Shown: in pieces, positions 13,203 to 46,549 of the stretch
Numbering within the stretch: the stretch's first letter is position 1
How the letters are laid out: each line of letters opens with the position of its first letter
UHGV virus genome: UHGV-0011358
Length of the DNA: 56,349 bases
Source: a virus
Direction: 5' to 3' (one strand)
The notes under the pieces: model-generated
The model's input: only the letters and a program-made list of their open reading frames with translations
Told to the model about the DNA's origin: nothing
Database searches by the model: none
Program-made: the position numbers and the translations under genes

Positions 13203-16200
13203 TTATCCTGAGAATGAACCAGAACCGCGCGACACTATGACTGTCGGCGAATTTATATAAGCCCCCTTGTCATTTTGAGCAGATACCTTAATTTTAACTG
13301 TAACGCCCCTGCTGGTTACTGCTGCTGAATGCATAACAAGGCGCTCCGTGCCATCCAGTGCTAAACCTTTTGATGAACCGCCAATTGTTATTGTGCAACC
13401 ACCAAAACCCTTAACGTTAGCCATAACGCAGATATGTCGGCTATACGCTGCGTCAGATGTGTCATTGTATGTTATTACTTTTTCTAACGCCCCATCCCTT
13501 AACGTGCTAACGTCAGAACCTGTGTACATGTTTGCAACATCACCGATAAAGGTTTTCGCCTCAAGTGAACCGGTAAACTTGCCGCTGTCTGCATGTATTT
13601 CACCCCTTACAACAACGTTGTTAAATTCTGATGCGCCGCTTTGTGTTATCCTCCAACCATTGGAACCGGGGACGAAGTTTGCTGATTTAATTTCATTGAC
13701 AATTTTAGCCATAGTAATGGAGGCATCTGCAATTTTAGCTGTCCCTATTGATGCATCCTTAATAAATGCCTCTTTCACATACATTGCGCCGTTAGTGACA
13801 TAGAAGGGCGATGTATATGCGCCGTTTGCCGCCGTCATTAACATAAAGCGATCAACAAGGAAAATACACTGCGACTGAAAGTTAGTGCCGTCACCAGTAA
13901 GGCCAAGCGACATACCTGTAGCGTATTTTACGCCATTGCTATCTGTGGCGAGCTTGATTGAATATGTCGCATCAACATTACCCCTAAAGTCGGTTAACGC
14001 TTTAGATGTCGTCTCTATTGCCGTCTTGTTCCCGTTAACGGTCACTGTTAGCTGATCAATTTTCGTTGACAACGCCTCGTCTGCCGTAGCCATTGTCTGC
14101 GACCATTCTGTAATACTTGAGTTTACTGATTCGAAAGACGCTGAGATCTGGCTAAATTTTTCCGCGCTTGATTCCTCATGCGTAGAGAGCGCCGTCGACA
14201 CTTCAGATACTTTTGAGTTGATCGTACTGGTAAGCGATGCGCTAAGGCCGCTTATTGCGTCCGCGCGTGCTTTTTTTTCGTCGGCGATGGCTTTGTCCAT
14301 CCTGGTGACGTTGCTTGTCACTTTATTATCAAGCGTGCTGACACTTGCGCTAACTTCGCTGATAGCTTGTCCTCTGGCGCTTGTTTCGTCAGCAATTACC
14401 TGATCAAGACGGTTTACGCTTGCTTCAGTCTTCTTATCAAGATTAGTGATCGATGCGTTTACACCGCTAATGGCTTCAGCCGTTGCTTTTTTCTCTTCAG
14501 CGATAACGTTGTCAATACGGTCAATTTTCGCGTTGGTTTCTCTGATTCCTTTCTTGTATTGGGCTGAAAGAGTAACACGCGTGTTGGTTTGAGCGATTGA
14601 GTTATTGATAAGTGCAATAGATGCGTTTTGCAGGCTTGCTTTTGCCTGATTTATTTCGTCGCTGTTTTTGCCAACATTATTTTCAACAGTGCCAAGATTT
14701 GCGCTGAGGCCTGATATTGCCTGAGCGCGGGCGCTTGATTCATCGGCAATTGCCTGATCAAGACGCTTAACGCTGGCGTTTGTGCTGTTCTCAAGCGTTG
14801 TTAAGTCTGCTTTAACCTCTGTTATTGCGTCGCTTCTTGCCTTCGTTTCGTCTGATATTGCTTTATCAAGGCGGGAAACGCTGGCATCTGTTTTCTTATC
14901 AAGGCTGTCTATTGATGCCTTCACGCCGCTAACGGCCTGTGCGCGGGCACTGGCCTCGTCAGCGATTGCCTGATCCAGGCGTTTAACGCTGGCGTCAGTT
15001 TTCTTATCAAGTGCCGAGATACTTGCGTTAACGTCACTGACCGCCTGTGTGCGGGCGTTCGTTTCATCTGCAATAGCCTGATCAAGCCTATTGACGCTGG
15101 CATCCGTTTTCTTGTCGAGATTGCTTATTGAGGCGTTCACACCGTTAATAGCTTCAGCGCGGGCACTAGCCTCGTCAGCCACTGCGCGTTCCACACTGGA
15201 GATCTGACCTTTAAGGTTGGAATCCATCGTGTTCATTTCTGCCGTGATGGTTTTCAGTGATTCAGCCGTTGCTTTTTTCTCTTCAGCGATAACGTTGTCA
15301 ATACGGTCAATTTCCGCTTTCGTTTCCGTTCTGCCTTTTTTGTACTGGGCGGTAAGGGTAACGCGCGTGTTTGTCTGTGCAAGCGAGTTGTTGATAAGCG
15401 CCAATGACGCGTTTTGCAGGCTTGCTTTTGCTTGCGCCAGTTCGCTGCCAACTTTTTCGCTGGACACTTCTAATAGGTCAATCCTGGACTCATGCTGACC
15501 AATATCATCGGCGTTTTCCTTAACTTTTTTGTAAAGATCTTCCGTTTCTTTTTTAAGTGTATCGGTGTCAGCTTTTATTGTTCCCGTTTCTGTGATCAGG
15601 TTGTCAGTGTCAGTCCTTAAATCTTCAGTTACGTTCGTAAGGTTATCAGTTGTAGTTTTGAGGTTGTCAGTAGCTGTTTTCAGTTCTTCCGCAACACCTT
15701 CGATAACATCGGTGCGGTCGCCTAGATCTTTGATGTCACCAATCATTTCCTTGAACTGTTCCGACCCCATGACATCCTTCATCACGTAGTCACTGATTTC
15801 ATCAAAATTCTCTGTCGGCTTACCTGACGCCTCTACAAAGTCAGACACGCCAAAAGCATTGCGTGTGCGCACGTAAACGTAATAAGTATGGCCCGTGTTC
15901 ATTCCGCCGAACGTCCACTGATAACCACGTCCGGTATATTGTGCATTAGTGGGGACTAATGCCGGATTAGTGATTTGTGTTTCGCCAGCAAAATAGAATT
16001 CATAGCTTGTATCGCTGGTCAGAGTTGTTTTGCTGATTGGGTATACAGTAGCCTGAAATACGCCTGGTATCCAGTTAACACCAATTGGTTTTGAAGGTGC
16101 ACCAATAACGAGATCAACGATAGATTCCGCGCCTTTCATACCGGTATCATTGCGGGCGCGAACGCCTAAAGAGTATTGACCGCAATTCAGGCCATTAAAA

Positions 16201-20155: not shown

Positions 20156-20275
20156 CTTGTCATTTTGTGATCGCTGTCACGCTAAATCATACCAAAACGG
20201 TTGATAGCGCTTTTTACAATATGTATATTGTACTCAAAAGGAAGCAGGGTTAACAAAATGGCGCGGAGGTGTGAG

Positions 20276-21182: not shown

Positions 21183-21188
21183 CAATAA

Positions 21189-21213
21189 CCCCGCTTCTCG
21201 CGGGGTTGTGTTT
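21189..21213. terminator. rho-independent terminator
   Basis: CCCCGC-TTCT-CGCGGGG hairpin then T-rich tract. Confidence 0.5.
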
Positions 21214-21409
21214 ATACGCCATCAACCAAAAATAAAACCTCCTTCCCTTCCCGGGATCTACACCCCACGTACCCATCACCAACGTCGTGAAGATACCATA
21301 TATCGCCGTTGTCAGCTTTTACAGTAAGGTCGTTGATCTCATAGTCGTCAAACAATGTAAAAGCGTAAGTTTTGTCAACTACACAAGTCCCGTACATAAC
21401 AACCCCCAT
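21212..21409 (-). CDS. hypothetical small protein downstream of M
   Basis: 65 aa ORF abutting the M stop. Confidence 0.3.
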   Translation of the reverse strand: MGVVMYGTCVVDKTYAFTLFDDYEINDLTVKADNGDIWYLHDVGDGYVGCRSREGKEVLFLVDGV

Positions 21410-21762
21410 TAGCCAACAACTTGTTCAAACGTTGCGTTTAGCGTGTACACAGGCCCGTCTTTGGTCATGCTCCAGCTACGGCAAACGAAAAGCCTTTGCA
21501 CCCCATCCATCGAAGGCGTCCAGTAGAAAGCATCGACAGCGCCGCGCGCCCTCAAAAATGCTTCAGCCTGGATCGCCACGTTTCCACCATCACCACATCC
21601 CGCGCTACTGCCTTTGAAAACCAGGGTATAACTATCAAGCAACGTGTTAATCCCTTTCGCCTGGCGCTGTTCATAACCATCACCAAGTTTAACGACAGAC
21701 ACATTTGGTTCCCTGGTCACGCTGTAGCTTCTTTGCGGCGTCCATCTGAAAACTTCTGGCAT
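21409..21762 (-). CDS. M: minor tail protein M
   Basis: 117 aa; VKLGDGYEQR and C-terminal FEQVV match lambda M by eye. Confidence 0.8.
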   Translation of the reverse strand: MPEVFRWTPQRSYSVTREPNVSVVKLGDGYEQRQAKGINTLLDSYTLVFKGSSAGCGDGGNVAIQAEAFLRARGAVDAFYWTPSMDGVQRLFVCRSWSMTKDGPVYTLNATFEQVVG

Positions 21763-21932
21763 GATTCCCCCTATAAGTTACATATTGCATACATCTTTAC
21801 GCGCTTCTACGCGAAAAATGAGAAATTCATCACAAGAATTATAACCAGTTTACAAAATGGCTTCACATAAGGCGTGACAAGATGTATATAGTAAGCAAGA
21901 AGAAAAAGCAGTACCGACAAAGGGGGGACAAC

Positions 21933-22088
21933 ATGGAACGCTATATGGTTGTGATGCTGAACAAAGCATTCGAACAGGTGGAAGTTGCGATTGTGAAGGG
22001 CTTTGATGATGCATTCAAATACGGTCAATTCATGATGAATGCAAAAGAAGATGAATACCGTGATTTCTTCCTGAAAGTGGTCAGCTAA
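21933..22088 (+). CDS. hypothetical small protein (moron island C)
   Basis: 51 aa; strong G-rich RBS. Confidence 0.4.
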   Translation: MERYMVVMLNKAFEQVEVAIVKGFDDAFKYGQFMMNAKEDEYRDFFLKVVS

Positions 22089-22106
22089 TGGATTGTGGGG
22101 TGTGTT

Positions 22107-22361
22107 ATGAAATTGGTGGCGATTGGTAAAAACCTGAAAGCACAGAAAAACGCACAGGACCGGATCATCAAAAAGGGCAAGGCTTTATTAAATGCTTTCC
22201 TGAAAAAAGAGGCCAACCCCAAAAAATTACGCGATGGCTACGGTTATAAATTTGACATCAACCCCGATTGGCGGTTATTCAGCGAAGATTTAAAGATGTG
22301 GTTAATTATTGACCACCTGGAATATAACAGGCACTGTGGGGTGAAAGGCGCTCACAAGTGA
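22107..22361 (+). CDS. hypothetical protein (moron island C)
   Basis: 84 aa basic ORF. Confidence 0.4.
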   Translation: MKLVAIGKNLKAQKNAQDRIIKKGKALLNAFLKKEANPKKLRDGYGYKFDINPDWRLFSEDLKMWLIIDHLEYNRHCGVKGAHK

Positions 22362-22392
22362 CACGGATTTGAATGTTGCGGAGGAAAACAAA

Positions 22393-22563
22393 ATGAAAAA
22401 TCCGGCAAATAAAAGCAACGTAAAACGCATAGCATGGGTGCTAAAATATATGGATAGTAAAGGGGATACATATACATGCCCATTTTTTAGGTATACTGAC
22501 GCGGTATTTGCCAGAAGTGTACACGGAGGGAAAATTGAAAGAGGATATACAAGATTTGAGTAA
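22393..22563 (+). CDS. hypothetical small protein (moron island C)
   Basis: 56 aa; GGAGGA RBS. Confidence 0.4.
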   Translation: MKNPANKSNVKRIAWVLKYMDSKGDTYTCPFFRYTDAVFARSVHGGKIERGYTRFE

Positions 22564-22781: not shown

Positions 22782-22787
22782 AAATAA

Positions 22788-22810
22788 CCCCGGCATTGCG
22801 CCGGGGTTTT
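22788..22810. terminator. bidirectional rho-independent terminator
   Basis: CCCCGGC-ATTGC-GCCGGGG hairpin flanked by T-runs on both strands. Confidence 0.6.
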
Positions 22811-22812
22811 GA

Positions 22813-25800
22813 TTATTTGCGGCGCGGTTGCAGCATTCCGCCCGGTCTGGATGATTCGCGGTGTATCAGGCCCATGCAGATCTTTTCCATATCCTGCTGT
22901 AGTTTTTTGGCGTCCTCATCACTCCATCCATTTTGTGGGTAAACGCTAATCGGTGCGTTTATACTAACGTTACCACCACCCGCACCACCAATGTCGCGAT
23001 TTGGTATTACCCTGCCGTTGTCACCAGGAATCATATACTGTTCACCGTTTCGAGATTGGAAGATCTCTGGCTTACCGTGTTCCCCTACGCGATACAGGCT
23101 ACCACCGTTAACCGCACCGCCGTTATAACGAGCGCCAGCCAGTCCAAGCGTTTTGGCGGCAGCGACGCCAGTAGTAAGCCCAGTAAGTCCAGTGGCCCCA
23201 GCGCCGCCCATCGTGGCAACGTTTGCCAGGTATGCAGGAGTAGCCCACGCTGATGATAACGCTGCCGCCTCTGCCAGTGCTTTGGTTGTTGCCATAGTTC
23301 TTGCTGTATCACCAATCAATTGCTGCTTGACCCACTCAGTACCCATTTGAACAATCGTACCAATCACGGAGGAAAGGATTGTATTGCCAATGTTAGCGAT
23401 CGCCTGTTGCCAATTTTGAGTACCGTTAATCAGGCCGACAAGCGCGTTAGTTGCGGATCCGCTCATTGCATCAACAGCATCGCCTAACAGTTGGTTGGTC
23501 AATGACTGCGCCTTATACCTCTCCCACTGAAGTGATAGCATTTCCCTCTCATGCGCTTTTTCTTGCTCCCTCATATATTGCTCTGTAGCGCCTAAATCTG
23601 TGAGCATCTGCTTGCGAACCGCCCATTCATTCATCGCCTGCTGAATTGGGTCTAGTTGCCCGCGTAGTTGTAGCTCTTTGTTTACCAGATTATCCCAGCT
23701 AGCCTGACGTTTGCGTTGTTCCTCGGTTCCAATTAATTCTTTCCATGCCTTATTATATTGTTCCGCGCTTATTTTGCCGCTTTTTAATGCTGCATTTAGC
23801 GCATCCTGATCCTCTTTTAATTTCCGTTGCGCGGCGGCTTCTACATTGTATTTATCTGCAACATTCTGGCCCCGTTTCTCAAGCTCTTTGCGCAGGCGTT
23901 CAGCCTCTTTTAGATGTTTTTTCTCCTCGCTTTCGCCAGTTTTTTTCCCATGACTGGCCTTTCTTTCAGCTTCGGCGCGTTTCTGCTCGGTGTCGTATGC
24001 TTTGGTCATTGTAGCCATGTATTTTTCATACGCTTCCCCGGTCAGGTTTGCTTTCTCAGCCTCACGCTTAAACCCATCAATCGCCTTTTCCCTGCTGGCT
24101 GTTTTGGAGTCGAGTTTTGCCAGCTCCAGGCGGCGGTTTGCCAGATTCATTAATTCTTGCTGATCTGCGTTAAGTGCTGCTGAAGCGTGTTGCGTTGCTG
24201 CTGCTGCGCGTTCTGCTTCTGTGGTGATTCTTCCGTATGCATCCGCTACCAACCCCAATGAAGTGGCAACGGTCTTCATTAGCGGATCTGTATCCTGCAT
24301 AAGCAGAATATATTTGCGCTGCATTTGATTAAGGCGGTCGAGAATATCCTCACGCTGCGCCTCTTCCCTGGTCAGGCGGGCTGTGATTTCCTGATTAGCT
24401 TTCGATAGGTTGGCGTAAGCGCGTGACCCCTCCTCTGCTTTCTCCAGTGCCTGTTTATTCAGTTCCAGCGCCTGCGTGTCCTGGTCAATCTGTTTGTTGA
24501 GACTGGCAACGTCTTCCTCTAACTGACCCATTGATATTTGTAGTTTATCTGCACCAGCCAGCTTAGCCGCCTTACTCATTCGTTCCAGTGATTCGGTACT
24601 AACGTCCACTGAATCGGCAAGGTTGCGGTTTGCCTCTGCCGTTTGATCTACGTGATCTACATATGCTGTCAACCCGTAAACAGCAAGCATTAACGCGCCA
24701 GGGATACCACCAATCGCACCCAGAGTAGCGCTAAACGCTGTTTTTAGTAGCCCTGCATTAGCCGCCGCCGCAGTGTGGGCCGCAGCAAGGCGCTGCTCTG
24801 CCGCAGTAAGGGCGTTTGATGCCGCTGTGTTCTGTGCTTTGGCTACAGCCAATTCTTTCAGTGTCTGAACTTCGAATTTTGTTCCGGCATTTGCCGCAGC
24901 ATAAGCCTGCGCCTCTCTCAACCTTGCCGCCGCCGCCGCTACTGATTGCCGTGCTGATACCACCTGAGCGTTAGCTAGCGCCAATTCACTCTGAGCGGCC
25001 TGCCGTGCCGCTGCCGTTTGTGCCCTGGTCGCCTGAGCGTTAGTTAATACCTCTGCTGTTGCAGCTACGAATTTATTTACCACTCTGCCACCCATCACAG
25101 TGGCAATGCCAATAAATGCAGTAGCTATTTCGTTAAGGTTTTCTGACAGGGTTACAACTGCCGAATTAAAAGCACCAATCCCGCCCATAATTGACGAATT
25201 GCTGCCGAAAAATTTAGCTGCGTTGTTGCCTGCAACAGTGAAAGCCTCCTGCATAGTTGGGGTGAGTTTAGAAAACTCAGCATCAACCTCCGCTTTCATT
25301 TCCTTAAGGGCTTTAATGATAGCTTCACGGGTGATTTTCCCTTCTGCTGCCATCTTGCGCATTTCCGCTGACGATACGCCCAGTGATTTAGCCAAACCCT
25401 CTGACAGCCTGGTGGCGTTTTCTGTAACGGAGTTAAATTCATCGCCATTCAAAACACCTTTGGCGAGGGATTGACCCAACTGACGGATCCCGCCTTCTGC
25501 TTCAGCGGCAGAAGCGCCAGAAATGCGGAATGTTTTGTTAATGGTTTCAACCATATCACCAAGTGCTTTCGTCGATAAACCAGCGTCGCGCGTCGAGCGC
25601 TCTAATTTACCGTAAAGATCTGCTGTAGCATCAAGATCGCTTCGTGAATTTTGCGCGATCTGAAATACACGCTGATTAACGTCTGCCAGTGATTCACCAG
25701 CACGAACGCTATTGATTAGCCTGTTATTCACCTCCTGCCAGGCGTTTGCATACTCAATGATTTTTTTTGCTGCCATTGCAGCACCCAGGGCACTGGCAAT

Positions 25801-25968
25801 CGAGGATAGCTTTGACAGTGACTTACTTGCCTGAGTGGCGGCACTATCCACGCGCTCCAAATCCTTTTCCATTTTGCCAGTTGCGCGATCTACCTCGCGC
25901 TGAACAGTCAGAAGCTGACCCGTTTTTGCATCAACCTCGTAATAAATTGTGCCTAAATTTGTTGACAT
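22813..25968 (-). CDS. H: tail tape measure protein
   Basis: 1051 aa, coiled-coil rich, Gly-rich C-terminus; sits upstream of M-L-K-I-J. Confidence 0.9.
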   Translation of the reverse strand: MSTNLGTIYYEVDAKTGQLLTVQREVDRATGKMEKDLERVDSAATQASKSLSKLSSIASALGAAMAAKKIIEYANAWQEVNNRLINSVRAGESLADVNQRVFQIAQNSRSDLDATADLYGKLERSTRDAGLSTKALGDMVETINKTFRISGASAAEAEGGIRQLGQSLAKGVLNGDEFNSVTENATRLSEGLAKSLGVSSAEMRKMAAEGKITREAIIKALKEMKAEVDAEFSKLTPTMQEAFTVAGNNAAKFFGSNSSIMGGIGAFNSAVVTLSENLNEIATAFIGIATVMGGRVVNKFVAATAEVLTNAQATRAQTAAARQAAQSELALANAQVVSARQSVAAAAARLREAQAYAAANAGTKFEVQTLKELAVAKAQNTAASNALTAAEQRLAAAHTAAAANAGLLKTAFSATLGAIGGIPGALMLAVYGLTAYVDHVDQTAEANRNLADSVDVSTESLERMSKAAKLAGADKLQISMGQLEEDVASLNKQIDQDTQALELNKQALEKAEEGSRAYANLSKANQEITARLTREEAQREDILDRLNQMQRKYILLMQDTDPLMKTVATSLGLVADAYGRITTEAERAAAATQHASAALNADQQELMNLANRRLELAKLDSKTASREKAIDGFKREAEKANLTGEAYEKYMATMTKAYDTEQKRAEAERKASHGKKTGESEEKKHLKEAERLRKELEKRGQNVADKYNVEAAAQRKLKEDQDALNAALKSGKISAEQYNKAWKELIGTEEQRKRQASWDNLVNKELQLRGQLDPIQQAMNEWAVRKQMLTDLGATEQYMREQEKAHEREMLSLQWERYKAQSLTNQLLGDAVDAMSGSATNALVGLINGTQNWQQAIANIGNTILSSVIGTIVQMGTEWVKQQLIGDTARTMATTKALAEAAALSSAWATPAYLANVATMGGAGATGLTGLTTGVAAAKTLGLAGARYNGGAVNGGSLYRVGEHGKPEIFQSRNGEQYMIPGDNGRVIPNRDIGGAGGGNVSINAPISVYPQNGWSDEDAKKLQQDMEKICMGLIHRESSRPGGMLQPRRK

Positions 25969-41167: not shown

Positions 41168-41557
41168 TTAAAATTCTGCACCAGGTAAGCTACGCGCTTT
41201 ATTTACCGCATCGTGTTTTAACGATAAACCAGCGTGATAATTCATAATCCCCATATTACCAACCGGTATTTCATTATTTTCTGCCTTTATTCTTAACAAC
41301 TGGTTTTTAGTGAAGATCCTGTCTCCATCAGTGATATATAACCAGTCGCCGCGCTTACCAACAACAACATGAGATCTGCCTAAGCTGTCTTTAAATTCAT
41401 AATTGCAGAAAACATCACCTTTAGGAACTTCAACAAAACAGCACGCAATGAACTTATTGCTTTTCATGATTTTGCCCATCCGCCTTTCTGTGCTCATATA
41501 TAACAAAACGGCGCTGCCTGAACAATGCCATTTCGTATACATTGTGATACTAGTCAC
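41168..41557 (-). CDS. hypothetical protein (cargo block)
   Basis: 129 aa ORF; start uncertain. Confidence 0.4.
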   Translation of the reverse strand: MTSITMYTKWHCSGSAVLLYMSTERRMGKIMKSNKFIACCFVEVPKGDVFCNYEFKDSLGRSHVVVGKRGDWLYITDGDRIFTKNQLLRIKAENNEIPVGNMGIMNYHAGLSLKHDAVNKARSLPGAEF

Positions 41558-41578
41558 ATTTTGCGCAATTAACTTTTA

Positions 41579-42288: not shown

Positions 42289-42548
42289 CGGCCCATACTG
42301 ATTAAAAAGTCCCGGATAGCGTGGCGCTCGTCGCGCGTTGGTTTGCGCTTACGGTAAATCCTGAAATCGAACCATGCTTTTTCCTGCTCAAAATCCAGGT
42401 CGTAAGCAAGCGCCTCAATGTAACCGCATTCGTGATACTGGTACGCCACGCCAGCACGAACAAAAAAGCGGGTTTTATCCCGCTTGTGCTCATAGATACG
42501 CATATTCACCCCGTTAAGCAGTTGTGTAGCTGTCCACCAGCTTTTCAT
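42270..42548 (-). CDS. hypothetical protein (cargo block)
   Basis: 92 aa ORF. Confidence 0.4.
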   Translation of the reverse strand: MKSWWTATQLLNGVNMRIYEHKRDKTRFFVRAGVAYQYHECGYIEALAYDLDFEQEKAWFDFRIYRKRKPTRDERHAIRDFLISMGRWETGE

Positions 42549-43576: not shown

Positions 43577-43769
43577 TGTCGTTTCTCCGTCCGTAAATAT
43601 GAACAGGCTCAATTGGCACGGCTGGTAATTCACCTTCGTTTAATGCGCTTGCCATGCCCAATATTAAACGCGCTTCAGCACCGGTAACTTTCTTGCACCA
43701 TGCACCGCCCGTTTTATCTTCGAACAAGATAACAGCAAACTGATCGTTTATTTCCAGCTTATCCATCAT
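43566..43769 (-). CDS. hypothetical protein (cargo block)
   Basis: 67 aa ORF directly downstream of Q. Confidence 0.4.
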   Translation of the reverse strand: MMDKLEINDQFAVILFEDKTGGAWCKKVTGAEARLILGMASALNEGELPAVPIEPVHIYGRRNDNEA

Positions 43770-44488
43770 TCACCCCGTGTCACTCGTTTGATTTCGTTGT
43801 CAGCCCGCGCCTCTTCTTTGAACAATTCGGCAATGGCGTCTTCATAGAAAGCGCGGTACTTCTTCCACCATGTTGATCGGCTTACCGGAAAAACAAGCTG
43901 ATTAACCGCCTGCCGGACAAGATCTACAGGGAAACGCGAGTACCCGCGCCCGCCGCAGTGCTGGCACGTTTTGAATACTGGCATTTCCGCCGCTTCGCTG
44001 GCTGTTTTATCCGGTATCTCGCCACGACCCTTGCATTGTTTACAATGATTGCGAACTGTCCCATGCCCCTTGCATTTTTTGCAAAGGTGTTTTTCTCCGT
44101 ATTCGTCAAACGTAAATTTATATCCGCCGCACTCCATACAAGTTTTTTCCGTCGCGGCGCTTTGGCAATAATCCCGAAACGCGAAAACGGCAACAAGAAT
44201 AATGAGATCATTGCGTTTGGCCTCGTCCAGTTCCATAACGTATTCATAATCTTTTGCCATAGCCCTTAAACGCTCTGTAAGCAAAACTACGGCCTTATGT
44301 TTTTCGGCTTGTGATAGTTCCATCTTCCCTAAAAAAGCGCTATAACCAAGCTCTACGCGCGATTGCGCCATACCTGCGGCAGTTAGTGCATCCGTAGTAT
44401 TAAACGCATCCGGGGACGTGCCCCGACTTTCATCTGATAAACGCGGTGATTTTGGGAAGTGGAATTTGAGAATTGATTCCAAATTCAT
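43766..44488 (-). CDS. Q: late-gene antiterminator Q
   Basis: N-terminus MNLESILKFHFPKSP and Cys-rich zinc-finger region match lambda Q by eye. Confidence 0.85.
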   Translation of the reverse strand: MNLESILKFHFPKSPRLSDESRGTSPDAFNTTDALTAAGMAQSRVELGYSAFLGKMELSQAEKHKAVVLLTERLRAMAKDYEYVMELDEAKRNDLIILVAVFAFRDYCQSAATEKTCMECGGYKFTFDEYGEKHLCKKCKGHGTVRNHCKQCKGRGEIPDKTASEAAEMPVFKTCQHCGGRGYSRFPVDLVRQAVNQLVFPVSRSTWWKKYRAFYEDAIAELFKEEARADNEIKRVTRGE

Positions 44489-46348: not shown

Positions 46349-46549
46349 TAATGCTCTCTCCTTTTCAGGTGATTTCTACGCATTTCAGCGCTGCCGGATT
46401 TTTAAAGAGCATTTTGTTTGCTTGAAGTATACAAAATGGATACACCAGAACAAGGCGAAAAGCGCCATTATGTGATCCATATCACACAATGACGCCATTT
46501 TGTAAACTTCAGTCCGGTAAAACGCTGGCGTGGTTAGCTAAAAGCTGTT

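What the first reader, a model, noticed from the sequence alone, without database searches (positions are those of the whole stretch)
21796..21825. Conserved 30 bp element upstream of both the M and portal genes
TTTACGCGCTTCTACGCGAAAAATGAGAAA (21796-21825) and TTTACGCGTTGCTACGCGAAAAATAGAAA (34772-34800) sit just 5' of two unrelated late genes. This could be a translational control element, a boundary sequence from module exchange, or an endonuclease target.
Basis: seen in the sequence. Interest (0 to 1): 0.45.

Follow-up and report, generated by a model that had tools for sequence, protein, structure and literature searches.

The report
Conserved palindrome before two late genes
A roughly 40-base palindromic sequence sits in exactly two places in this mEp021-type E. 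coli phage, just ahead of the portal gene and the tail-tip gene M; every known relative keeps it, so it is almost certainly an undescribed control signal for those genes, but sequence alone cannot say how it works.

Summary
The window is an mEpimmI-type (mEp021-like) temperate siphophage with its late genes on the minus strand. The repeat is about 40 nt (21786-21825 and 34762-34800). In gene orientation it reads TTTCT(C)ATTTTTCGCGTAG-NNN-CGCGTAAA(G/C)ATGTAT(G/T)CA.

There are exactly two copies, both non-coding and both in sense orientation. One lies 13 nt before the portal Shine-Dalgarno/ATG region and the other 24 nt before the M Shine-Dalgarno. All 7 sequenced family phages, 31/31 family M loci and 50/50 family portal loci carry it. 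It is the local peak of conservation. It is absent from other phage groups with homologous portal or M genes, from species-representative genomes and from Rfam.

It does not mark mosaic junctions, so the "module boundary" reading is rejected. It can form a stem-loop in the sense RNA, CGCGU-AGNN-RCGCG plus U/A flanks, but no covariation supports this. It equally reads as a CGCGTAR direct repeat at 10-bp spacing next to a -10-like TAAANNT.

Best guess (about 0.35): a leader/intercistronic stem-loop recognised by one trans-acting factor. Rivals are a -35-less promoter/operator, a DNA roadblock operator, and an antiterminator reloading site. Moderately interesting; the kind of element is conventional.

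The parts
21786..21825 (-). M-site copy of the conserved block: TTTCTCATTTTTCGCGTAGAAGCGCGTAAAGATGTATGCA
   Evidence: The core has pairwise identity 0.948 across 40 distinct family sequences, the local maximum.
21792..21820 (-). Predicted stem-loop in the sense strand at the M site. Inner stem 21809-21813 / 21800-21804, loop AGAA 21805-21808, U/A-rich outer stem.
   Evidence: -11.8 kcal/mol, z -2.96; RNAalifold consensus. There is no covariation.
21800..21813 (.). CGCG-N6-CGCG core. In gene orientation this is the direct repeat CGCGTAG / CGCGTAA at 10-bp spacing.
34762..34800 (-). Portal-site copy of the conserved block: TTTCTATTTTTCGCGTAGCAACGCGTAAACATGTATTCA
   Evidence: Pairwise identity from the element to the ATG is 0.986-0.998, against 0.77-0.97 in the flanks.
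34768..34796 (-). Predicted stem-loop in the sense strand at the portal site. Inner stem 34785-34789 / 34776-34780, loop AGCA 34781-34784.
   Evidence: (-6.2 kcal/mol, z -1.1).
21793..21798 (-). -10-like hexamer AAAGAT. The portal equivalent is AAACAT at 34769-34774. All family variants keep TAAANNT. A conserved C-A follows 7 nt downstream (21786-21787 and 34762-34763).
   Evidence: alignment A1: A36-A38 and T41 invariant, columns 39 and 42 variable. The promoter reading is inferred only.
21838..21843 (-). Perfect TATAAT, 18 nt upstream of the ATTTTT start of the M-site core. It is invariant in all 31 family M loci and is a probable sigma-70 promoter whose transcript would carry the element at about +13 to +41.
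   Evidence: The consensus scan missed it because the -35 is weak.
21848..21860 (-). CCATTTTGTAAAC motif between the weak -35 and the TATAAT. It belongs to a motif family that is over-represented in the window.
   Evidence: 15 matches against 2.8 expected; CATTTTGT 23 against 5. Pairwise identity 0.926.
21819..21834 (-). TGTGATGAATTTCTCA, a degenerate member of a TGTGAT-N4-ATCACA palindrome family. It abuts the 5' flank of the element.
21409..21762 (-). Minor tail protein M gene. The Shine-Dalgarno GGGGG is at 21767-21771.
   Evidence: PF05939, E 1.9e-29.
33379..34749 (-). Portal gene. The Shine-Dalgarno AGGAG is at 34758-34762.
   Evidence: PF06381; mEp021 gp52.
34828..36312 (-). Large terminase gene. 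Its stop codon lies 28 nt upstream of the portal-site block.
22786..22808 (.). Bidirectional terminator-like hairpin after the tape-measure gene. Together with the plus-strand island at 21882-22563 it separates M from the upstream late genes.
21187..21207 (-). Terminator-like hairpin that closes the short unit of M plus a 65-aa ORF.
   Evidence: I2.

Best explanation
The two copies are one family-specific cis-regulatory signal that acts in the sense orientation on the cistron immediately downstream: portal and the head genes after it, and the M unit.

I think it most likely works in the transcript. The late mRNA crossing the TerL-portal junction, and the short M mRNA made from the conserved TATAAT promoter 18 nt upstream, both fold the element into a stem-loop. 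The stem-loop is 5'-(A)UUUUU-CGCGU-[AGNN]-RCGCG-U-AAANAU. The invariant loop bases (U)AG and the GC stem would be recognised by a single trans-acting factor, a phage or host RNA-binding protein or nuclease. That factor would set the stability, processing or expression of the downstream RNA and so tie portal and M output to a common control.

What is shown: two copies only; sense orientation; non-coding position; family-wide purifying selection; ability to fold.

What is inferred: that the RNA rather than the DNA is the active form; that a factor binds it; and the direction of the effect.
For: Position and orientation. There are exactly two copies, both in the untranslated region directly 5' of a late gene and in the same orientation as that gene.

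Selection. The portal copy plus its leader is the most conserved stretch in a 660-nt window, at 0.986-0.998 pairwise identity against 0.77-0.88 for the intergenic DNA just upstream and 0.78-0.97 for coding flanks. The M core is 0.948.

Distribution. It is present in 7/7 sequenced relatives, in 84 IMG/VR stretches, and in 31/31 M and 50/50 portal family loci.

Folding. Sense-strand folding gives -11.8 kcal/mol (z -2.96) at M. RNAalifold returns the same hairpin, and 92.9% of pair cells are standard pairs.

Variants. The rare stem changes are mostly those that keep G.U pairing only on the sense strand: C21U, C31U, A15G and A40G, against one breaking change, U20C. The closing pair alternates U.G / U-A in 42 of 47 variants. 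One relative tolerates a 1-nt deletion in the loop/spacer (L115/L116).

M site. The invariant TATAAT upstream places the element inside a transcribed leader.

Motif shape. The asymmetry of the motif (TAG invariant, the mirror positions variable) argues against a simple symmetric dimer operator.
Against: No pair shows a compensatory double change, and shuffled controls do as well as the real alignment. The stem is essentially invariant, so the structure is compatible with the data but not demonstrated.

The portal hairpin is weak (-6.2 kcal/mol, z -1.1), and its antisense strand folds equally well.

The identical TA(R) after both CGCG blocks, and the 10-bp periodicity, are explained more simply by a DNA direct repeat.

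The conserved GTAT(G/T)CA tail is not explained by the hairpin.

No Rfam family matches. No candidate binding protein was found among the unannotated phage ORFs.

The distance to the Shine-Dalgarno differs between sites, so classical translational repression is unlikely at M.
Confidence: 0.35

Rival explanations
1. Internal late promoter with a built-in operator. The block is a -35-less core promoter. TAAANNT would be the -10, and transcription would start at the conserved C-A 7 nt downstream (window 21786 and 34762). The CGCGTAR-N3-CGCGTAR repeat, centred near -21, would be the binding site of an unidentified activator or repressor.
For: Similarity between the two sites runs from about -42 to +1 of the predicted start and stops there; the leaders downstream are unrelated.

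All 47 variants keep A-11 and T-7 of the -10-like hexamer, while -9 varies.

M is cut off from upstream late genes by a bidirectional terminator and an opposite-strand island, so it needs its own promoter.

A palindrome at about -22 replacing the -35 is the architecture I recall for P1 Lpa-dependent late promoters. This is from memory and was not checked.
Against: There is no recognisable -35, and the -10 matches only 3 of 6 positions (AAAGAT / AAACAT). The promoter scan does not call it.

The portal mRNA would begin at its own Shine-Dalgarno, giving a 13-nt leader.

The M site already has a perfect, invariant TATAAT 46 bp upstream of the predicted start.

Only two sites exist, whereas activator-dependent late regulons usually cover every late unit. 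The L and tape-measure units lack the element.

No Lpa/Mor/Ogr-like protein was detected.

The plus strand offers an equally good -10-like AAAAAT, so the -10 argument is weak.
Confidence: 0.25
2. Double-stranded DNA operator acting as a roadblock or promoter-proximal repressor site. A phage protein would bind the CGCG-N6-CGCG site. At the M site, at +19 to +32 of the TATAAT promoter, it would block transcription into M. At the TerL-portal junction it would block read-through into the head genes. This resembles mycobacteriophage stoperators.
For: The motif is a 22-bp near-palindrome, TTTnCGCG-N6-CGCGnAAA, with half-site centres 10 bp apart.

Its position just downstream of a probable start site is typical of repressors.

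The orientation is fixed relative to transcription in both copies.
Against: There is no copy in the immunity region or anywhere else, so it is not the prophage repressor's operator.

TAG in the spacer is invariant while its mirror positions vary, which is unlike a homodimer site.

A 9-bp-spacing variant survives in one relative.

No candidate binding protein was found.
Confidence: 0.15
3. Reloading site for processive antitermination. The element would be a nut-, put- or qut-like signal that re-arms RNA polymerase, with the N-like Gp17 or the lambda-type Q, before the strong terminators of the late region. On this reading it continues the series nutR1 (54.5 kb) and nutR2 (46.4 kb) with sites at 34.8 kb and 21.8 kb.
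For: The family is already unusual in using an extra nut site (PMC11893012).

The element is a short GC stem with a purine-rich loop, like the window's boxB hairpins. The nutR1 loop is UGGAAGU and the M-site loop is UAGAAG; variant L105 has UGGAAG.

Strong terminator-like hairpins lie downstream at 29667-29687, 22786-22808 and 21187-21207.

CGCG-N6-CGC has the 1-4 / 11-13 geometry of the 13-bp lambda Q-binding element (PMC9388147).
Against: There is no boxA. GCTCTTTAA is present at all three nut sites but absent here.

The loop starts with A, so it is not GNRA-like.

The -10-like hexamer directly abuts the repeat, leaving no room for the sigma region 4 site seen in lambda pR'.

No similar motif lies near the Q gene.
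Confidence: 0.08
4. Recombination boundary or homing-endonuclease target, or a neutral remnant of a duplication.
For: The DNA upstream of the portal copy is variable and carries a 68-nt indel in some relatives. An HNH gene is inserted about 20 nt downstream of the M copy in L075.
Against: Homology breakpoints do not coincide with the element at either site. Conservation peaks on the element itself, which is not what a neutral remnant shows. There is no endonuclease association at the portal copy.
Confidence: 0.04

Closest known systems
Lambda-type nut boxB hairpins, including the mEp021 family nutL / nutR1 / nutR2 (Gp17 system)
   Same: Short GC-rich stem with a purine-rich loop in the sense transcript. 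A few copies per genome, placed ahead of long transcription units. Same phage family.
   Different: No boxA. The loop is not GNRA-like. The element lies in the late region, not after early promoters. It has no sequence similarity to the three nut sites.
Bacteriophage P1 Lpa-dependent late promoters (architecture recalled from memory, not verified here)
   Same: A -10-like hexamer with a short palindrome centred about 21-22 bp upstream of the putative start, in place of a -35. Located 5' of morphogenesis genes.
   Different: Only two sites instead of about a dozen. No Lpa homologue was found. The -10 is weak. No start site has been mapped.
Mycobacteriophage L5 / Cluster A stoperators
   Same: Short sites in intergenic gaps of lytic genes, in a fixed orientation relative to transcription. 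Proposed to block elongation.
   Different: Stoperators share their sequence with the immunity operator and occur about 20-30 times. This element has two copies and none in the immunity region.
Lambda pR' qut site (Q-binding element plus sigma-dependent pause element)
   Same: The phage encodes a lambda-family Q (E 6e-38 to PDB 7ubm). The motif is bipartite with blocks at positions 1-4 and 11-13, next to a -10-like hexamer.
   Different: The spacing to the -10-like element is wrong. The portal copy has no promoter. The element is not located downstream of the Q gene.
Phage translational operators (T4 gp43 / RegA, MS2 coat hairpin) and 5' stabiliser hairpins (ompA type)
   Same: A small hairpin with conserved loop bases in the 5' untranslated region of the regulated cistron.
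   Different: The hairpin is 9 nt (portal) and about 21 nt (M) upstream of the Shine-Dalgarno and does not overlap the ribosome-binding site. It is not at the 5' end of the predicted M transcript.

Membership tests
nut site (boxA + boxB) | boxA (GCTCTTTAA-like) 5-8 nt upstream of the hairpin | tested here: not met
   Exact boxA matches lie only at 46403-46410, 54582-54589, 55596-55603 and a few coding positions, none near the element. The 5' flank of the element is UUUCUCAUUUUU.
nut site (boxA + boxB) | boxB loop that is GNRA-like or A-rich and starts with G | tested here: not met
   The loops are AGAA / AGCA (hexaloop reading UAGAAG / UAGCAA), against UGGAAGU, UGAAAU and GCGA in the window's nut sites.
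Intrinsic terminator | GC hairpin followed by a U-run on the transcribed strand | tested here: not met
   The T-run precedes the hairpin and the A-run follows it on both strands. The terminator scan does not call it.
Sigma-70 promoter | -10 hexamer with A-11 and T-7 | tested here: inconclusive
   AAAGAT / AAACAT keep A-11 and T-7 in all 47 variants but match TATAAT at only 3 of 6 positions. The opposite strand also offers AAAAAT.
Sigma-70 promoter | -35 hexamer 16-18 bp upstream | tested here: not met
   TCATTT / CTATTT at the required distance. The scan does not call it.
Sigma-70 promoter | Mapped primary transcription start | not testable with these tools
   No transcript data are available.
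Structured RNA element (Rfam or covariation-supported) | Match to a curated family | tested here: not met
   No hits at E<=10 in either 400-nt region.
Structured RNA element (Rfam or covariation-supported) | Compensatory base changes that keep the pairs | tested here: inconclusive
   92.9% of cells are paired but there are 0 double changes and the shuffles do as well. The stem is almost invariant.
Lambda-type qut site | Located at the late promoter directly downstream of the Q gene, with a Q-binding element upstream of a sigma-dependent pause element | tested here: not met
   Q is at 43766-44488. No element-like motif lies downstream of it. The element is 9 kb and 22 kb away.
Mosaic boundary (linker) sequence | Homology breakpoints between relatives coincide with the element | tested here: not met
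   Breakpoints lie at about -599 and about +503 to +700 around M. TerL-portal homology is continuous except for a 68-nt indel upstream.
Homing-endonuclease target | Cleavage by, or adjacency to, a free-standing endonuclease gene | tested here: inconclusive
   An HNH gene is inserted between the leader and M in one relative only (L075). There is none at the portal copy. Cleavage cannot be tested.
Stoperator-type repressor site | Same sequence as the immunity-region operator, in many copies | tested here: not met
   There are only two copies, and none in the region 54.5-55.7 kb.

The most novel reading that the evidence does not exclude
The element is a new class of booster site for processive antitermination. 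On this reading the very long rightward transcript of mEpimmI phages is re-armed every 8-13 kb, at nutR1, nutR2, the portal site and the M site. The last two would use a boxA-less hairpin recognised by Gp17, by the lambda-type Q, or directly by RNA polymerase.
Probability: 0.08. Interest if true: 0.7.

Novelty: new member of a known kind. Interest (0 to 1): 0.35.

Why it matters
mEpimmI phages were described as a family only in 2025. They are reported to be as common in human faeces as lambdoid phages, and their late-gene control is uncharacterised. This element is the most strongly conserved non-coding sequence next to two essential morphogenesis genes. It gives a concrete, mutable handle on how the family controls portal and tail-tip expression. 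It also bears on how late genes stay expressed when the tail operon is split into separate units by opposite-strand accessory genes. If it proved to be an antitermination reloading site or a new promoter class, it would extend textbook lambda-type regulation. If it is an ordinary leader hairpin or operator, it is still a useful annotation feature for the family.

Tried and rejected
1. Third copies or degenerate copies. Mismatch patterns, CGCG-N6-CGCG, CGCGTAAANNT and a covariance model with filters off found only the two sites.

2. Presence outside the family. The element is absent upstream of portal in Salmonella phages S107 and 29485, and upstream of M in ES18. It is absent from 52 loci of other phage groups. 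A degenerate pattern scan of 185,579 species genomes gave only chance-like hits with unrelated flanks. The portal protein search in genome contigs found nothing.

3. More stem variants. A metagenome scan anchored on the portal Shine-Dalgarno region returned only invariant stems.

4. Rfam. No hits.

5. A trans-acting small RNA complementary to the element. No third or inverted copy exists.

6. A leader peptide starting at the conserved ATG. Rejected, because many M-site variants have ATA there.

7. A toxin-antitoxin operator for the divergent ParE-like pair. Unlikely: the portal site has no such genes, and two relatives (L112, L113) lack the small upstream ORF but keep the element.

8. A candidate regulator among the unannotated ORFs between Q and the lysis genes, and the 180-aa ORF before TerS. 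Pfam, PHROGs and NCBIfam gave nothing informative.

9. The canonical Q-dependent late promoter, sought for comparison. It could not be located. The candidate terminator-like hairpin at 42466-42485 lies inside an ORF.

10. A CRP class II reading of the TGTGA-N6-TCTCA next to the M copy. Not pursued as an explanation, because this palindrome type recurs at other regulatory gaps in the phage and is absent at the portal site.

11. The P1 genome paper, sought for the late-promoter consensus. It is not held.

Full report
**What the window is.** Megablast of both regions finds only seven phage records, all of them the recently described Nus-dependent non-lambdoid mEpimmI group: mEp021, mEp010, mEp013, mEp044, mEp515, mEp554 and MagusPhagus, at 88-100% identity. 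The family paper (PMC11893012) describes a CI-like repressor, an N-like antiterminator (Gp17) with three nut sites, and a Q-like protein. It says nothing about late promoters or about this element. In the window the late genes run on the minus strand:
- TerS 36309-36794 (Sf6-type)
- TerL 34828-36312
- portal 33379-34749 (Pfam Phage_portal_3)
- head genes
- tape measure 22813-25968
- M 21409-21762 (Pfam Phage_min_tail)
- L, K, I and J

The Q protein (43766-44488) is a lambda-Q homologue (E 6e-38 to PDB 7ubm) with an insertion of about 33 residues in the DNA-binding arm.

**The observation.** The 24-nt core occurs twice at up to 3 mismatches, and no shuffle gave a match. Read in the direction of the genes, the shared block is about 40 nt:
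- M site: TTTCTCATTTTTCGCGTAGAAGCGCGTAAAGATGTATGCA (21825 down to 21786)
- Portal site: TTTCT-ATTTTTCGCGTAGCAACGCGTAAACATGTATTCA (34800 down to 34762)

Downstream of this block the two leaders are unrelated. The M leader continues ATATGTAACTTATAGGGGGAATCATG and the portal leader continues GGAGTAAACATTATG. A covariance model built from 47 distinct variants, run with filters off, finds no third copy. Looser patterns find none either.

**Distribution and selection.**
- An exact-pattern scan of IMG/VR gave 84 stretches. Every one is either the M context or the portal context, usually two per roughly 54-kb contig.
- Loci fetched through the M protein, independently of the element, show it in all 31 family loci (84-98% M identity). 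It is in none of the 49 loci from other phage groups (67-71% M identity).
- Loci fetched through the portal protein show it in all 50 usable family loci.
- A metagenome scan anchored on the portal Shine-Dalgarno region returned 23 family loci and one unrelated sequence. All the family loci have the element.
- 34 of 5,426 complete E. coli genomes carry the portal-site region.
- Phages whose portal is 57-60% identical (S107, 29485), or whose M is 68% identical (ES18), lack it.
- A degenerate scan of species-representative genomes gave only hits with unrelated flanks.
- Within the family the element is the local conservation maximum. At the portal site, pairwise identity is 0.986-0.998 from the element to the ATG, 0.77-0.88 for the 30 nt just upstream, and 0.78-0.97 in TerL and portal coding DNA. 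At the M site the core is 0.948.
- The three central bases differ between the sites (AAG at M, CAA at portal). They are occasionally swapped: the M site has CAA in L054, and the portal site has AAG in L002 and L288. Either form is therefore tolerated at either site, or the copies exchange sequence.

**Anatomy.** The invariant or nearly invariant positions are ATTTTT-CGCG-TAG-(NNN)-CGCG-TAAA-(N)-AT-(N)-TAT-(N)-CA. Three readings fit this pattern.

(a) Stem-loop in the sense strand. This is CGCGU / RCGCG closing a 4-nt loop AGNN, extended by U-A pairs. Predicted stability is -11.8 kcal/mol (z -2.96) at M and -6.2 kcal/mol (z -1.1) at portal. RNAalifold recovers it. On 47 variants, 92.9% of pair cells are standard pairs. 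No pair has a compensatory double change, and the shuffled control is as good. The structure is therefore allowed but not demonstrated. Weak hints favour the sense RNA:
- Four one-sided changes keep G.U pairing (C21U, C31U, A15G, A40G) against one that breaks a pair (U20C).
- The closing pair is U.G or U-A in 42 of 47 variants.
- One relative has a 1-nt deletion in the loop.

(b) DNA direct repeat. CGCGTAG and CGCGTAA lie one helical turn apart, with exactly the three spacer bases free to vary.

(c) Core promoter. TAAANNT is a -10-like element in which A-11 and T-7 never vary. A conserved C-A lies 7 nt downstream, and similarity between the sites ends there. However, there is no -35, the -10 is weak, and the portal mRNA would start at its own Shine-Dalgarno. 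The opposite strand also carries an equally plausible AAAAAT. The motif is not a terminator on either strand, because the T-run precedes the hairpin.

**Context at M.** M is separated from the tape-measure gene by a bidirectional terminator-like hairpin (22786-22808) and a plus-strand island (21882-22563, including a ParE-like ORF). Another terminator-like hairpin follows M (21187-21207). The region upstream of the element is dense with conserved signals:
- a perfect TATAAT (21838-21843), invariant in all 31 family loci
- a CCATTTTGTAAAC motif just upstream of it
- a TGTGAT-N4-TTCTCA half-palindrome between the TATAAT and the element

If the TATAAT is the M promoter, the element lies at about +13 to +41 of the leader. 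The portal site has none of these extra signals. The hexamer at the equivalent position is CACAAT in many relatives and CACAAC in others, and the DNA between the TerL stop and the element is the least conserved in the region. The only thing common to the two sites is therefore the 40-nt block itself, in a transcribed and untranslated position.

Breakpoints of family homology around M fall near -599 and between +503 and +700 relative to the M start, not at the element. TerL-to-portal homology is continuous (83% and 87% identity), with only a 68-nt insertion about 40 nt upstream in one lineage. The element is therefore not a module boundary. One relative (L075) has an HNH endonuclease gene inserted between the conserved leader and the M Shine-Dalgarno. 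This shows that the spot is permissive for insertion. It does not make the element a cleavage target, and nothing comparable occurs at the portal site.

**Comparison with known systems.**
- Nut site: not met. The boxA found at the window's three nut sites (46374-46410, around 54540-54589, 55596-55632) is absent, and the loop is not GNRA-like.
- Lambda-type qut site: not met. Nothing similar lies downstream of Q, and the spacing to the -10-like hexamer is wrong, although CGCG-N6-CGC has the 1-4 / 11-13 geometry of the lambda Q-binding element.
- Stoperator: not met. There is no copy in the immunity region.
- Rfam: no match.
- The nearest functional analogies are small leader hairpins bound by phage regulators, and, for the DNA reading, late promoters in which a short palindrome replaces the -35 (P1 Lpa type, recalled from memory).

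**Verdict.** The feature is real, strongly selected, family-specific and undescribed, and it is a cis-regulatory element. I rank the readings as follows:
- a sense-strand stem-loop recognised by a trans-acting factor, about 0.35
- a -35-less promoter/operator, about 0.25
- a DNA roadblock operator, about 0.15
- an antitermination reloading site, about 0.08
- boundary, endonuclease target or neutral remnant, about 0.04

The remainder is unassigned. The available sequence variation cannot separate the RNA readings from the DNA readings, because the core almost never varies. 5'-end mapping and compensatory mutagenesis would separate them.

Noticed in passing
window 3399, 20249, 21848, 26007, 46427, 46495, 54663, 55506 and others: A 13-nt motif, CCATTTTGTAAAC, is over-represented: 15 matches at up to 2 mismatches against 2.8 expected. 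Its core CATTTTGT occurs 23 times against 5 expected. It sits in regulatory gaps: the immunity region, the nutR2 region, and upstream of the tape-measure, M, L and helicase genes. It may be the site of a phage regulator that also controls internal late promoters.
   Followed up: partly
window 41543-41558, 46471-46486, 49840-49855; degenerate copies at 20166-20181, 21819-21834, 55458-55473: Three perfect TGTGAT-N4-ATCACA palindromes, identical to the core of the CRP consensus. For TGTGA-N6-TCNCA there are 7 strand-matches against 0.5 expected. They lie in intergenic gaps and often next to CATTTTGT motifs. Weaker copies lie upstream of L, upstream of M (overlapping the predicted start of the TATAAT promoter), and in the immunity region. 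They could be phage operators or host CRP sites.
   Followed up: partly
window 46374-46410 (-), about 54540-54589 (-), 55596-55632 (+): Three boxA (GCTCTTTAA[A/C]AATC) plus hairpin units that correspond to the published nutR2, nutR1 and nutL of the mEp021 family. The boxB loops are UGAAAU, UGGAAGU and GCGA.
   Followed up: partly
L075 (IMGVR_UViG_2695420423_000006), about 20 nt downstream of its M-site element: An HNH endonuclease gene (motif EVDHIDHNRLNN) is inserted exactly between the conserved M leader (..ATGTAACTTAT) and the M Shine-Dalgarno, so it is co-transcribed with M.
   Followed up: partly
window 21882-22563 (+): A plus-strand island divergent from M. It holds a 51-68 aa ORF followed by a ParE-like toxin-domain ORF (22095-22361, PF24732, E 8e-12) and a 64-aa ORF. 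The first two are conserved with the M unit as one block in most relatives. Two relatives (L112, L113) lack the segment carrying the small first ORF.
   Followed up: partly
loci L003, L008, L016 and others, just upstream of the portal-site element: One lineage has a 68-nt insertion after the usual TerL end. It contains the perfect palindrome CTTCGAAAAATTTTCGAAG.
   Followed up: no
E. coli RefSeq hits H116-H127: PGAP names the portal gene of these prophages 'anti-CBASS protein Acb1 family protein' or 'DUF1073'. Pfam calls it Phage_portal_3, and mEp021 proteomics identified it as the portal. This is probably a naming artefact.
   Followed up: no
window 43766-44488 (-): The Q antiterminator is lambda-Q-like over its whole length but carries about 33 extra residues (115-147) at the zinc-ribbon arm that contacts DNA in lambda Q. 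The canonical Q-dependent late promoter could not be located; genes follow Q without a gap.
   Followed up: partly
window 37366-37908 (-): A 180-aa ORF between the lysis genes and TerS has an HEVAH (HExxH) metalloprotease-like motif and a lysine-rich tail. Its only family match is PHROG 1365, of unknown function.
   Followed up: no
window 14322-15179: Five diverged tandem copies with 108-nt spacing, inside the 1670-aa J-like tail-fibre gene.
   Followed up: no
window 42466-42485 (-): A strong terminator-like hairpin, AAGCGGGATAAAACCCGCTT followed by TTTTTG, lies inside a small conserved ORF about 1.3 kb downstream of Q.
   Followed up: no
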